This document shows positions 1 through 39,519 of a stretch of 39,519 nucleotides of DNA, one piece after another. The notes beneath the pieces are model-generated. The model had not been told where the DNA came from. It did no database searches and saw only the letters and a list, made by a program, of their open reading frames with translations. This DNA comes from a virus. Position numbers and translations under genes: made by a program. Each line of letters opens with the position of its first letter. The first letter of the stretch is position 1. Location of the stretch: the UHGV virus genome UHGV-0148166. One strand, given 5' to 3'.

Positions 1-51
1 AGATCTACACGTAAGGAGTCGTCGGCAGCGTCAGATGTGTATAAGAGACAG
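1..51. other. Illumina Nextera/Tn5 adapter remnant (AGATCTACAC + index GTAAGGAG + TCGTCGGCAGCGTC + mosaic end AGATGTGTATAAGAGACAG); technical, not biological
   Basis: Matches the Nextera read-1 adapter with 8-nt i5 index; exact reverse complement at 39471-39519. Confidence 0.95.
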
Positions 52-3800: not shown

Positions 3801-4281
3801 TTTTAAAAACTCGCTGGTATGATTTAGATGATGGGGATGATGGCATTTCAGTTGATAGAGTTGACTGGAATGGTTGTTCCGAAGATATGAAAAATTTGTT
3901 GATTAGGGAGTTTAGAATGGGATATCAAGCAGCTAAGCCATTTACTGTAACAGATGATAAGTTCGTATGTATTCAAAACGGTCGCGCTAAGTTAACGAAT
4001 GCTGATTGGTTCACAGATAAGAAGGTTCTTCTGTGGTATATCATTAGTCTTCCTATATCATCGTTCGTATTTTACTTTTTTATAAAAAATCCAATGGACA
4101 GAATAGGAGATTGGATTCTTTTAACCATACTTGTTAATATTTTTACAGCAGCAGTATTATCAGGAATATGGCGTATGTTCATTGAAATGCCATGGCGTTT
4201 ACGCAGACAACAAAAGATTTTTGATGAAAAGAAATATACTCAAAATTTAAATAACTTTATCACTGAATGCAGGAAATTAAA

Positions 4282-4285
<4 letters not shown>
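3797..4285 (+). CDS. 2-TM membrane protein, paralog 3 with N-terminal soluble domain (C-terminal tail NFITECRKLK)
   Basis: Hydrophobic helices in C-terminal half; AGGAAA RBS; ATGA overlap with next gene. Confidence 0.6.
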
Positions 4286-5254
<969 letters not shown>

Positions 5255-7929: not shown

Positions 7930-8391
7930 ATGACTATCAATACAGAAGTTTTTATCCGTCGAAATAAGCTTCGTCGTCACTTTGAGTCGGAGTTTCGTCA
8001 AATTAACAATGAGATTCGTGAGGCATCAAAAGCAGCAGGAGTCTCATCGTTTCATCTAAAATATTCTCAGCATCTTCTTGATCGTGCAATTCAACGGGAG
8101 ATTGATGAGACATATGTTTTTGAATTATTCCACAAAATAAAAGACCATGTTTTAGAAGTTAATGAATTCCTGAGTATGCCTCCGCGTCCTGACATTGATG
8201 AGGATTTTATTGATGGGGTTGAATACCGTCCTGGACGTTTAGAAATCACAGATGGAAATCTTTGGCTTGGATTTACAGTTTGTAAACCTAATGCGAAGTT
8301 CAAAGACCCGTCGCTTCAATGCAGGATGGCAATTATCAATAGTCGTCGTTTACCAGGAAAGGCTTCTAAAGCAGTAATTAAAACTCAATGA
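7930..8391 (+). CDS. regB: RegB site-specific endoribonuclease
   Basis: 153 aa, length and sequence match T4 RegB as recalled; AAGAGGAG RBS. Confidence 0.85.
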   Translation: MTINTEVFIRRNKLRRHFESEFRQINNEIREASKAAGVSSFHLKYSQHLLDRAIQREIDETYVFELFHKIKDHVLEVNEFLSMPPRPDIDEDFIDGVEYRPGRLEITDGNLWLGFTVCKPNAKFKDPSLQCRMAIINSRRLPGKASKAVIKTQ

Positions 8392-8398
8392 GGTAAGC

Positions 8399-8944
8399 AT
8401 GAGAAAAGCACTACTCGCTGGTCTATTGGCCATTTCAATGATGGCACATAGCTCCGAGCATACTTTCAGTAATGTCCAACTCGATAACATGCGTTACGCG
8501 TATCAATTCGGGGAACAATTTTCTAAGGATGGAAAATATAAAACACACAAAAACATCCATAAGAGCGGATTGGGTCATATAATGGCTGCTATTTTGTGGC
8601 AAGAAAGCTCTGCCGGAGTTAATTTAAAATCTAAACCAAAGCATCATGCCTATGGAATGTTCCAAAATTATTTGCCTACTATGCGAGCGAGAGTCAAGGA
8701 ACTTGGTTATAATATGACCGATGCTGAAATAAAAAGAATGTTGAATAAACGATCCAATTCAGCTTCCTGGGCGTACATTGAACTTTCTTATTGGTTAAAT
8801 ATACATAAGGGCGATATAAGAAAAGCAATATCCTCTTATAATTCGGGATGGAATGTTAAAGCAGGTTCTAAATATGCTTCTGAAGTCCTAGAAAAGGCTA
8901 ATTACCTTAAAAATAATAAACTTTTGGAAATAGTAAATGACTAA
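8399..8944 (+). CDS. Secreted lytic-transglycosylase-like protein (SLT-domain motifs)
   Basis: N-terminal signal peptide; motifs WQESS, AYGMFQ, YNSG resembling the SLT catalytic region. Confidence 0.6.
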   Translation: MRKALLAGLLAISMMAHSSEHTFSNVQLDNMRYAYQFGEQFSKDGKYKTHKNIHKSGLGHIMAAILWQESSAGVNLKSKPKHHAYGMFQNYLPTMRARVKELGYNMTDAEIKRMLNKRSNSASWAYIELSYWLNIHKGDIRKAISSYNSGWNVKAGSKYASEVLEKANYLKNNKLLEIVND

Positions 8945-9278
8945 AATTTTGGTTTTATGTGTAGGATTAATTTCATTTTCTGCGTTAGCAAATACATCAT
9001 ATACTGAAATTAGAGAATATGTAAACCGCACTGCGGCAGATTATTGTGGGAAAAATAAAGCATGCCAAGCTGAATTTGCACAGAAATTAATATATGCATA
9101 TAAAGACGGAGAAAGAGATAAATCAAGCAGATACAAAAACGATACATTATTAAAACGATATGCTAAAAAGTGGAATACCTTAGAATGTTCAGTTGCGGAG
9201 GAGAAAGATAAAGCCGCTTGTCATTCAATGGTTGACCGTTTGGTAGATTCTTATAATCGAGGATTGAGTACTAGATGA
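8937..9278 (+). CDS. Small secreted protein with 4 Cys (113 aa)
   Basis: Signal peptide (MTKILVLCVGLISFSALA); ATGA overlap with upstream gene. Confidence 0.55.
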   Translation: MTKILVLCVGLISFSALANTSYTEIREYVNRTAADYCGKNKACQAEFAQKLIYAYKDGERDKSSRYKNDTLLKRYAKKWNTLECSVAEEKDKAACHSMVDRLVDSYNRGLSTR

Positions 9279-9742
9279 TTGTAAAATATATCAAGGGCGA
9301 TATTGTCGCCCTATTTCTTCAAGGTAATATTATTGCGCATGGATGTAATTGTTTTCATACTATGGGTTCAGGCGTAGCGGGTCAATTAACCAAAGCTTTC
9401 CCTAAAATTTTGGAAGCTGATAAATTACAGACTGAATGGGGTGATGTAACTAAACTCGGTTCTTACTCAGTCTATGAAAAATACTTTAGGACTCATAAAG
9501 CGTATTGCTTCAACCTTTATACTCAATTTCAACCAGGGCCAAATTTTGAGTATTCCGCTTTAATGAATTGTATGTTAGAATTAAATGAGTTTGGTGAAAA
9601 TAAACTGATTAAACCTACAATCTATATGCCTAGGATTGGTGCAGGCATAGGTAAAGGGAACTGGGATATTATTGAAGATATTTTAGATACATATTCCTCT
9701 AAATTAGAAATTGTGATTGTTGATTGGGAACCGTTATTATGA
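9275..9742 (+). CDS. Macro-domain protein (ADP-ribose binding/processing fold)
   Basis: Motifs KGDIV..AHGCNC..MGSGVAGQL and IGAGIGKGNW match the macro-domain GDIT / GGGVAGAI / GxGxxG pattern. Confidence 0.65.
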   Translation: MIVKYIKGDIVALFLQGNIIAHGCNCFHTMGSGVAGQLTKAFPKILEADKLQTEWGDVTKLGSYSVYEKYFRTHKAYCFNLYTQFQPGPNFEYSALMNCMLELNEFGENKLIKPTIYMPRIGAGIGKGNWDIIEDILDTYSSKLEIVIVDWEPLL

Positions 9743-9951
9743 ATATACATTATCCACATCCGTATGACCCAAAGAATAAGGCAGTAATTATTCGTCAATG
9801 GGAACGCATTTGCCGTACTAAATGCCCAATTAATAGTCCACATGATGTAGATAAAGACTATATTGGAACATTCGTTGAATATACCTTTATTGATAGGAAA
9901 GGTCGTAAACAACATGTAGAAGAATATTGTTTAAAGGTTACATGGTTATGA
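9739..9951 (+). CDS. Hypothetical small protein (70 aa)
   Basis: ATG with ATGA overlap; track start 9724 is a TTG. Confidence 0.45.
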   Translation: MNIHYPHPYDPKNKAVIIRQWERICRTKCPINSPHDVDKDYIGTFVEYTFIDRKGRKQHVEEYCLKVTWL

Positions 9952-10154
9952 GCCAAACTAGTATTCTTAAAAATGCCCATTGTGAAAAGTGTAAGTGGCC
10001 GATTGTTTTTGCTTTATGTAATGATGAAATGGCTTGTGATTTCGATTATTGGTGCTATTGTTCTAATAAAGGATGCATCAATCATAAAGGTGAAGGATTT
10101 TATTCAGGATTTTATCCTTATCCTGATTTCGTTAAAGAAGGTAAACCGAAATGA
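9948..10154 (+). CDS. Small Cys-rich putative zinc-binding protein (68 aa)
   Basis: CEKC...C..C...CYC..GC cysteine pattern. Confidence 0.45.
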   Translation: MSQTSILKNAHCEKCKWPIVFALCNDEMACDFDYWCYCSNKGCINHKGEGFYSGFYPYPDFVKEGKPK

Positions 10155-10515: not shown

Positions 10516-11097
10516 ATGGCGAGTTTAATTTTTACTTACGCAGCAATGAATGCTGGAAAATCTGCTTCTCTTTTGACTGCTGCACATAATTATAAAGAAC
10601 GCGGAATGGGTGTATTAGTTCTTAAGCCTGCTATTGATACTCGCGATTCTGTCTGTGAAGTCGTTTCTCGCATTGGAATTAAGCAGGAAGCGAATATTAT
10701 TACGGATGATATGGATATTTTTGAGTTCTATAAATGGGCTGAAGCACAAAAAGATATTCATTGCGTATTTGTAGATGAAGCTCAGTTTTTAAAAACTGAA
10801 CAGGTGCATCAATTAAGTCGAATTGTTGATACATATAATGTTCCTGTTATGGCTTATGGATTAAGGACTGATTTCGCTGGAAAATTGTTTGAAGGTTCTA
10901 AAGAACTTTTAGCGATTGCAGATAAACTTATTGAACTAAAGGCAGTTTGTCATTGCGGCAAAAAAGCGATTATGACAGCTCGATTAATGGAAGATGGAAC
11001 ACCAGTTAAAGAAGGTAATCAAATCTGTATTGGTGATGAAATTTATGTTTCTTTGTGTAGAAAACATTGGAATGAATTAACTAAAAAGCTCGGTTAG
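10516..11097 (+). CDS. tk: Thymidine kinase
   Basis: 193 aa; P-loop GKSASL, TK family motifs, C-terminal Cys zinc cluster. Confidence 0.92.
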   Translation: MASLIFTYAAMNAGKSASLLTAAHNYKERGMGVLVLKPAIDTRDSVCEVVSRIGIKQEANIITDDMDIFEFYKWAEAQKDIHCVFVDEAQFLKTEQVHQLSRIVDTYNVPVMAYGLRTDFAGKLFEGSKELLAIADKLIELKAVCHCGKKAIMTARLMEDGTPVKEGNQICIGDEIYVSLCRKHWNELTKKLG

Positions 11098-39470: not shown

Positions 39471-39519
39471 CTGTCTCTTATACACATCTGACGCTGCCGA
39501 CGACTCCTTACGTGTAGAT
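39471..39519. other. Illumina Nextera adapter remnant (reverse complement of 1-51)
   Basis: CTGTCTCTTATACACATCT + GACGCTGCCGACGA + CTCCTTAC + GTGTAGAT. Confidence 0.95.

What the first reader, a model, noticed from the sequence alone, without database searches (positions are those of the whole stretch)
9275..9742. Phage-encoded minimal macro domain
Seen in sequence: a 155-aa protein with KGDIV...AHGCNC...MGSGVAGQL and later IGAGIGKGNW, matching the macro-domain pattern (GDIT / GGGVAGAI / GxGxxG). Established knowledge: macro domains bind or hydrolyse ADP-ribose adducts and derivatives; T4 itself ADP-ribosylates host proteins (Alt, ModA, ModB), and some defence systems (e.g. DarTG) ADP-ribosylate phage DNA with a macro-domain antitoxin reversing it. 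Inference: this could be a counter-defence de-ADP-ribosylase or a regulator of phage-driven ADP-ribosylation.
Basis: partly seen in the sequence, partly recalled or inferred. Interest (0 to 1): 0.58.

Follow-up and report, generated by a model that had tools for sequence, protein, structure and literature searches.

The report
T4 Tk.4/AdfM macrodomain, anti-DarTG2 factor
This gene is the T4-like phage macrodomain protein Tk.4, recently named AdfM, which lets T4 escape a bacterial defence (DarTG2) that tags phage DNA with ADP-ribose, so the finding is real but already described.

The parts
9275..9742 (+). tk.4 / adfM coding sequence: 155 aa, a stand-alone macrodomain. The end coordinate includes the TGA stop.
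9259..9278 (+). Translation start region. A GAGGA Shine-Dalgarno-like motif lies at 9259-9263. ATGA at 9275-9278 means the tk.4 start codon overlaps the stop codon of the upstream vs gene, an arrangement typical of translational coupling.
   Evidence: Read directly from the sequence. Coupling is an inference.
9338..9352 (+). H22-G23-C24-N25-C26 strand/loop. N25 corresponds to SCO6735 N27 and PhiKZ AdfM N23, and H22 corresponds to SCO6735 H24.
   Evidence: H22, G23, C24 and N25 are at least 90% conserved and C26 is invariant in 61 family members. hhalign register. Mutational data for SCO6735 N27S and PhiKZ N23A.
9362..9382 (+). M30-G31-S32-G33-V34-A35-G36, the glycine-rich substrate-binding loop. 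Invariant A35 sits where, from my own knowledge, MacroD-type enzymes have their catalytic Asp. S32 replaces SCO6735 K34.
   Evidence: Conservation. Alignments.
9419..9421 (+). D49, invariant in this phage family. It lies at a position where the DarG-clade sequences and SCO6735/Bt_1257 examined all have Tyr. Its role is unknown.
9512..9526 (+). N80-L81-Y82-T83-Q84 motif. Q84 occupies the position of the catalytic Lys of DarG (K80) and TARG1 (K84), and of the essential Gln85 of SCO6735.
   Evidence: N80, Y82, T83 and Q84 are invariant. HMMER and hhalign registers. SCO6735 Q85A is inactive.
9629..9664 (+). P119-R-I-G122-A-G124-I-G-K-G128-N-W130, the diphosphate-binding loop. G122 and G124 correspond to SCO6735 G126 and G128.
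   Evidence: P119, I121 and G124 are invariant; G122, G128 and W130 are at least 90% conserved. Alignment. SCO6735 G128E loses activity.
9294..9312 (+). Perfect 8-bp GC-rich hairpin inside codons 7-13 (KGDIVAL), followed by a T-rich tail. It is identical in the five phages compared. Whether it functions at all is uncertain.
   Evidence: Terminator-like scan. Annotated as a rho-independent terminator in phage DalCa. 100% conserved in 5 phages, including the divergent allele. The fold z-score is only -1.58.

Best explanation
The gene encodes the T4-type AdfM (Tk.4), an orphan, antitoxin-like macrodomain expressed from the regB-vs-tk gene cluster. When a host DarT2 toxin ADP-ribosylates thymidines in single-stranded phage DNA (TNTC motifs) to block replication, the protein binds the ADP-ribose moiety in its cleft. 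That cleft is formed by the MGSGVAG loop and the PRIGAGIGKG loop. The protein then hydrolyses the ribose-thymine bond, releasing free ADP-ribose and restoring normal DNA, so infection proceeds. Catalysis is probably of the SCO6735 type. In that type, Gln84, held in place by Asn25, orients the distal ribose for attack by water. This differs from the Lys-based chemistry of DarG and TARG1. What is shown: the ORF, the fold, the conserved residues, orthology to T4 tk.4, and (from the literature) the DarTG2-specific requirement for tk.4 in T4. [quoted passage not shown]
Against: None of the papers I found shows an in vitro assay of the T4-type protein. The family lacks the DarG/TARG1 catalytic Lys. 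It also lacks the SCO6735 DNA-contact lysines K34 and K89, and the longer 'mobile loop' said to characterise the SCO6735 subclass. The SCO6735 mechanism therefore cannot simply be transferred. Catalytically dead SCO6735 also inhibits DarT by binding, so hydrolysis need not be the only mode of protection. The window protein differs from T4 Tk.4 at 5 residues (15, 16, 18, 19, 135), none at a conserved column.
Confidence: 0.8

Rival explanations
1. The protein protects mainly as a stoichiometric inhibitor. It binds DarT2, or shields the ADP-ribosylated site, and hydrolysis is dispensable.
For: The catalytically inactive SCO6735 Q85A, DarG K80A and TARG1 K84A mutants all still reduce DarT activity in vitro, and SCO6735 does so most strongly. 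The T4-type family lacks the canonical catalytic Lys.
Against: The 155-aa protein has no counterpart of the DarG C-terminal DarT-binding domain; it matches only profile positions 2-147 of the 338-position NCBIfam DarG model. The residues that are invariant in the family are the ADP-ribose-pocket and catalytic-position residues, as expected for an enzyme. PhiKZ AdfM works enzymatically.
Confidence: 0.1
2. It is a small-molecule ADP-ribose-derivative hydrolase. The candidate activities are a Poa1p-like ADP-ribose-1''-phosphate phosphatase or an O-acetyl-ADP-ribose deacetylase, as many database labels say ('phosphatase', 'Poa1p-like', 'O-acetyl-ADP-ribose deacetylase').
Against: These labels are homology transfers, not tests. 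Poa1p has Ser where this family has its invariant Gln84 (alignment). From my own knowledge, T4 RNA repair (Pnk plus Rnl1) produces no ADP-ribose-1''-phosphate. The only phenotype known for tk.4 is DarTG2-specific. ALC1-like macrodomains are often promiscuous, so a side activity is possible.
Confidence: 0.05
3. It reverses or tunes the phage's own ADP-ribosylation of host proteins or RNA-protein conjugates made by Alt, ModA and ModB. A variant is that it removes protein or RNA ADP-ribosylation placed by other host defence ARTs.
For: T4-like phages carry ARTs, and SCO6735 and TARG1 also remove Glu/Asp-linked protein ADP-ribose. The family occurs in 2,787 of 50,697 phage records, which may suggest a role wider than DarTG2 alone.
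Against: From established knowledge, Alt, ModA and ModB modify arginine, and Arg-ADPr is normally cleaved by ARH/DraG-type enzymes, not ALC1-like macrodomains. The HIDEN-SEQ screen reported no fitness cost of tk.4 loss without DarTG2. Homologs are common in phage groups of quite different genome size and host. I did not check whether those phages carry ARTs.
Confidence: 0.05

Closest known systems
Phage T4 Tk.4 = AdfM (anti-DarT factor Macrodomain; bioRxiv 10.1101/2025.11.20.689424)
   Same: 150 of 155 residues are identical. The length is the same and the gene order vs.1-vs-tk.4-tk.3...tk is the same. All family-conserved residues are retained.
   Different: There are five substitutions (A15L, E16Q, K18N, N19I, G135D). 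The first four lie in a short patch (9291-9330) that is identical to the divergent ZJUN4-type allele.
Streptomyces coelicolor SCO6735 and Bacteroides Bt_1257 (ALC1-like macrodomains; SCO6735 hydrolyses dT-ADPr DNA)
   Same: Bt_1257 is the best PDB match by sequence and by fold. Gln occupies the catalytic position. The supporting Asn, the His and the Gly of the phosphate loop are conserved.
DarG antitoxin macrodomain of DarTG2 (M. tuberculosis 5M3I, T. aquaticus 5M31/5M3E, T. africanus 7OMU)
   Different: There is no C-terminal DarT-binding domain and no adjacent darT gene. Gln replaces the catalytic Lys80. The NCBIfam DarG score is 31.5 bits against a 250-bit cutoff.
PhiKZ gp104, also named AdfM (Cell Rep 2026, PMC13309987)
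   Same: A stand-alone phage macrodomain of about 160 aa that counters DarTG2. Removal of ADP-ribose from DNA was demonstrated in vitro.
   Different: It is a true DarG-clade protein with the FPTK Lys motif (E=9e-25 to Mtb DarG). BLASTP against the window protein finds only a 33-residue local match at E=0.003. Two different macrodomain sub-clades therefore share one name.
Human TARG1/OARD1 and yeast Poa1p
   Different: TARG1 uses Lys84 and Asp125, whereas here those positions are Gln84 and Gly126. Poa1p has Ser at the position of Gln84 and acts on a small molecule.

Membership tests
Macro domain superfamily (Pfam PF01661) | Sequence score above the curated gathering threshold across the whole domain | tested here: met
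   28.4 bits against a cutoff of 22, E=1.7e-6, model positions 2-117 of 118.
Macro domain superfamily (Pfam PF01661) | Three-layer alpha/beta macro fold with glycine-rich ADP-ribose-binding loops | tested here: met
ALC1-like class (TARG1 / DarG / SCO6735 / Poa1p) | Closest structural and sequence neighbours belong to this class rather than to the MacroD, PARG or viral-nsp3 classes | tested here: met
T4 Tk.4 / AdfM orthologous group | High identity to T4 Tk.4 at the syntenic locus between vs and tk.3 | tested here: met
   97% identity over 155 aa. Gene order matches T4 and T4_ev151.
T4 Tk.4 / AdfM orthologous group | Required for plaque formation on DarTG2-expressing hosts | not testable with these tools
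   Shown for T4 in the literature only.
DarG antitoxin (NCBIfam NF048014, PADLOC DarG) | Full-length two-domain protein (macro plus C-terminal DarT-binding domain) scoring above the equivalog cutoff | tested here: not met
   31.5 bits against a cutoff of 250. Only profile positions 2-147 of 338 are matched, and the protein is 155 aa.
DarG antitoxin (NCBIfam NF048014, PADLOC DarG) | Encoded next to a darT toxin gene | tested here: not met
   The neighbours are vs, vs.1, regB, tk.3 (DUF7202), a zinc-binding ORF and tk.
DarG antitoxin (NCBIfam NF048014, PADLOC DarG) | Catalytic lysine (Taq DarG K80) in the FPTK motif | tested here: not met
   Invariant Gln84 aligns with the Lys.
SCO6735 / Bt_1257 subclass | Gln at the catalytic position, held by a conserved Asn | tested here: met
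   Q84 aligns with Q85 and N25 with N27.
SCO6735 / Bt_1257 subclass | Mobile loop about five residues longer than in DarG and TARG1 | tested here: not met
   There is a 5-6-residue gap in the phage family opposite Bt_1257/SCO6735 after the Gln motif.
Poa1p-type ADP-ribose-1''-phosphate phosphatase | Phosphatase activity on Appr-1''-p | not testable with these tools
   Only fold and sequence similarity is available. Database 'phosphatase' labels are transferred, not tested.

The most novel reading that the evidence does not exclude
The T4-type AdfM may be a separate, essentially phage-only branch of ALC1-like macrodomains rather than a captured DarG antitoxin. On this reading it uses Gln84-based catalysis together with family-specific invariant residues (Asp49, Cys26, Tyr82). 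The two deeply diverged alleles at the same Tequatrovirus locus would then reflect an arms race. The opposing party could be different DarT2 variants or further, still unknown nucleic-acid ADP-ribosylating defences.
Probability: 0.3. Interest if true: 0.4.

Novelty: already known. Interest (0 to 1): 0.15.

Why it matters
The gene is one of the counter-defence genes that explain why T-even phages resist DarTG systems. AdfN removes guanine-linked ADP-ribose placed by DarTG1, and AdfM counters the thymine-targeting DarTG2. Recognising it in a new T4-like genome helps predict host range against DarTG2-bearing strains. The remaining scientific value is mechanistic. The T4-type protein lacks the Lys used by DarG, so its chemistry and substrate range still need biochemical definition.

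Tried and rejected
1. A plain MAFFT alignment with the PDB references put Bt_1257 and SCO6735 two columns out of register at the NLYTQ motif. I therefore relied on the HMMER and hhalign registers, which agree with each other and with the published structure-based alignment.

2. I looked for cellular homologs sitting next to a DarT gene, to test a captured-antitoxin origin. The two homologs labelled as bacterial MAG proteins that I checked (P0074, P0078) lie on T4-like phage contigs, beside Rnl1, a Dda-like helicase, PNK and a spanin. The origin therefore remains unresolved.

3. I searched the literature for enzymology of T4 Tk.4 and found none.

4. The hairpin at 9294-9312 might be a terminator or regulatory element. 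Its sequence is conserved, but the fold is not significantly more stable than shuffled sequence (z=-1.58) and there were too few divergent sequences to test covariation. I left it as a side note.

Full report
**Observation**

The window carries an ATG-initiated ORF at 9275..9742 on the + strand. A GAGGA motif lies 11 nt upstream of the start codon. The start overlaps the stop of the preceding ORF (ATGA at 9275-9278). The TGA stop in turn overlaps the ATG of the next ORF at 9739.

**Is it a macrodomain?**

Yes, by four independent lines.
- Pfam Macro (PF01661) matches at 28.4 bits, above the 22-bit gathering score, over model positions 2-117 of 118.
- phmmer against PDB sequences finds Bacteroides Bt_1257 (1.6e-9), yeast Poa1p (9e-7), Streptomyces SCO6735 (2.6e-4), the T. 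aquaticus DarG macrodomain (4.7e-4) and TARG1/OARD1 (1.5e-3). A 61-sequence family profile raises all of these to between 1e-11 and 2e-18.
- An AlphaFold2 model built on that alignment has mean pLDDT 95.5 and pTM 0.91.

The protein is therefore a stand-alone member of the ALC1-like class (TARG1/DarG/SCO6735/Poa1p).

**Which gene is it?**

The window is a Tequatrovirus (T4-like) contig. The first 25 kb are 95-98% identical to many T4-like phages. The ORF itself hits 654 phage records by megablast, with T4_ev151 best at 99.1%.

The local gene order is regB (7930-8391, PF10715), vs.1 (8399-8944, SLT domain), vs (8937-9278), this ORF, three small ORFs, then tk (10516-11097). This is the T4 order, where the gene is annotated tk.4, 'conserved hypothetical protein'. 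The protein is 150/155 identical to T4 Tk.4. None of the five differences (positions 15, 16, 18, 19, 135) falls on a conserved column. Many GenBank records already call the ortholog 'macro domain protein', 'Poa1p-like', 'ADP-ribose binding module' or 'phosphatase'. PHROG 335 is labelled 'phosphatase'.

**What is known about it?**

A bioRxiv preprint of 20 November 2025 (10.1101/2025.11.20.689424) ran a transposon screen (HIDEN-SEQ) in T4. It reports the following:
- tk.4 was the single significant hit on an E. coli host expressing DarTG2.
- A clean tk.4 knockout sensitised T4 to DarTG2.
- The predicted structure resembles the M. tuberculosis DarG macrodomain.
- The authors named the gene adfM, for anti-DarT factor Macrodomain.
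- They state only that enzymatic removal of ADP-ribose from DNA 'seems likely'.

This complements AdfN (T4 30.3), a NADAR enzyme that removes guanine-linked ADP-ribose placed by DarT1 but does not act against DarTG2. Independently, a 2026 Cell Reports paper gave the same name AdfM to PhiKZ gp104. It showed in vitro that gp104 removes DarT2-placed ADP-ribose from DNA, with an N23A mutant impaired. Phage macrodomains are common in general: 41% of myoviruses have one (PMC9503650).

**How it most likely works**

The family alignment of 61 sequences (36-95% identical to the query) has these invariant residues: C26, G33, A35, D49, N80, Y82, T83, Q84, P119, I121 and G124. Residues conserved in at least 90% of sequences are G8, H22, G23, C24, N25, M30, G31, P43, G62, G88, G122, G128 and W130.

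HMMER and hhalign agree on the register. Q84 aligns with the catalytic Lys of TARG1 (K84) and DarG (K80), and with the Gln of Bt_1257 and SCO6735 (Q85).

SCO6735 is the informative precedent (PMC9411070):
- It lacks the Lys yet hydrolyses DarT-made thymidine-ADPr on ssDNA faster than DarG or TARG1.
- It does not touch guanine-ADPr.
- It rescues E. coli and S. coelicolor from DarT.
- Q85A abolishes activity, and N27S and G128E largely abolish it.

The equivalents here are Q84, N25 and G124, and all are conserved. I therefore commit to this mechanism: the protein binds the ADP-ribose on DarT2-modified thymidine in single-stranded phage DNA. It then hydrolyses the ribose-base bond by water attack, with Gln84, positioned by Asn25, orienting the distal ribose. 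Confidence is about 0.8 for the function. It is lower for the chemical details.

**Differences from the precedents**

- Against DarG: there is no C-terminal DarT-binding domain and no neighbouring darT. Gln replaces Lys. The NCBIfam DarG score is 31.5 bits against a 250-bit cutoff, although the PADLOC DarG model hits at 1.6e-9.
- Against SCO6735/Bt_1257: the phage family lacks the 5-6-residue longer 'mobile loop' that the authors consider characteristic of that subclass. It also lacks both DNA-contact lysines; K34 is Ser32 here and K89 has no equivalent. It has an invariant Asp49 where the DarG-clade sequences and SCO6735/Bt_1257 examined all have Tyr.
- The family profile is equally distant from the two groups (98.9% at 3e-17 versus 99.0% at 4e-18). 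I regard it as its own branch.
- Against PhiKZ gp104: that protein is a true DarG-clade macrodomain with the FPTK motif (9e-25 to Mtb DarG). BLASTP against the window protein finds only a 33-residue local match at E=0.003. The shared name hides two different lineages.

**Rivals**

1. Protection by binding DarT2 rather than by hydrolysis. Dead SCO6735 still inhibits DarT. Against this, the conserved residues are those of the pocket and there is no DarT-binding domain.
2. A Poa1p-like phosphatase or an OAADPr deacetylase, as many labels claim. These labels are homology transfers. Poa1p has Ser at position 84, and the only phenotype known for tk.4 is DarTG2-specific.
3. Reversal of the phage's own Alt/ModA/ModB marks. 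From established knowledge these are Arg-linked and not typical macrodomain substrates.

I give each rival 0.05-0.1.

**Distribution and variation**

tblastn finds homologs in 2,787 of 50,697 phage records. They span T-even relatives and many other large phages of Escherichia, Klebsiella, Salmonella, Pseudomonas, Vibrio, Acinetobacter and Aeromonas. BFVD fold hits agree, including Acinetobacter phage 133 'tk.4'. The two homologs labelled as MAG proteins that I checked are on T4-like phage contigs.

Within Tequatrovirus there are two deeply diverged alleles at the same locus. The ZJUN4-type allele is 60% identical in protein and about 45-68% identical in DNA across 9411-9725. The flanking vs and tk.3 sequences are nearly identical. 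This window's allele is T4-type apart from a short ZJUN4-like patch at 9291-9330.

**Verdict**

The finding is real, correctly read, and already known. The gene is an ortholog of a named T4 counter-defence gene, and its macro-domain nature is already annotated in public records. What remains open is the biochemistry of the Gln-type active site and the substrate range. Interest is 0.15.

Noticed in passing
window 1-51 and 39471-39519: Both ends of the window are Illumina Nextera i5 adapter sequence, not phage DNA. The 5' end reads AGATCTACAC-GTAAGGAG-TCGTCGGCAGCGTC-AGATGTGTATAAGAGACAG, and its reverse complement sits at the 3' end. Homology to phages starts at base 52. The 'MCIRDR...' start of ORF 35-673 is adapter-derived.
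   Followed up: yes
window 9294-9312 (+): A perfect GC-rich hairpin (AGGGCGATATTGTCGCCCT) followed by a T-rich tail lies inside codons 7-13 of tk.4. It is annotated as a rho-independent terminator in phage DalCa. It is 100% identical in T4, DalCa, Mosigvirus ST0 and the otherwise divergent ZJUN4 allele. The fold z-score is only -1.58. It could be an attenuator after vs, a recombination junction, or mere coding constraint.
   Followed up: partly
window 9411-9725 compared with L005 (PP216085.1): Two deeply divergent tk.4/adfM alleles (60% aa identity, about 45-68% nt) occupy the same locus in Tequatrovirus phages. The vs and tk.3 flanks are nearly identical. The window's allele carries a short ZJUN4-type patch at 9291-9330. 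This is the mosaic pattern often seen in anti-defence genes.
   Followed up: partly
window 9948-10151 (+): The ORF in the tk.2 position is a 68-aa 'Phage zinc binding domain' protein (PF23895, E=3.5e-29). Its DNA is only 25-50% identical to the corresponding stretch of T4 and ZJUN4 across 9966-10148. This looks like a gene or allele replacement between tk.3 and tk.1.
   Followed up: partly
window 4267-4722 (+): A 151-aa Nudix hydrolase (PF00293, E=4e-13) lies just upstream of the T4-lysozyme-like gene at 4760-5254, in the position of T4 nudE/e.1. From my own knowledge, T4 NudE hydrolyses ADP-ribose. It could therefore dispose of the free ADP-ribose released by AdfM. This link is speculative.
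   Followed up: no
L003 41-1495 and L004 69-1546: In more distant T4-like phage contigs the macrodomain gene lies in a different neighbourhood. It follows a DUF4326 gene, RNA ligase 1 and a small unannotated ORF, and it precedes a Dda-like helicase. In L003 a PNK-like gene lies about 2.5 kb further downstream. The vs-tk location is therefore not universal.
   Followed up: no
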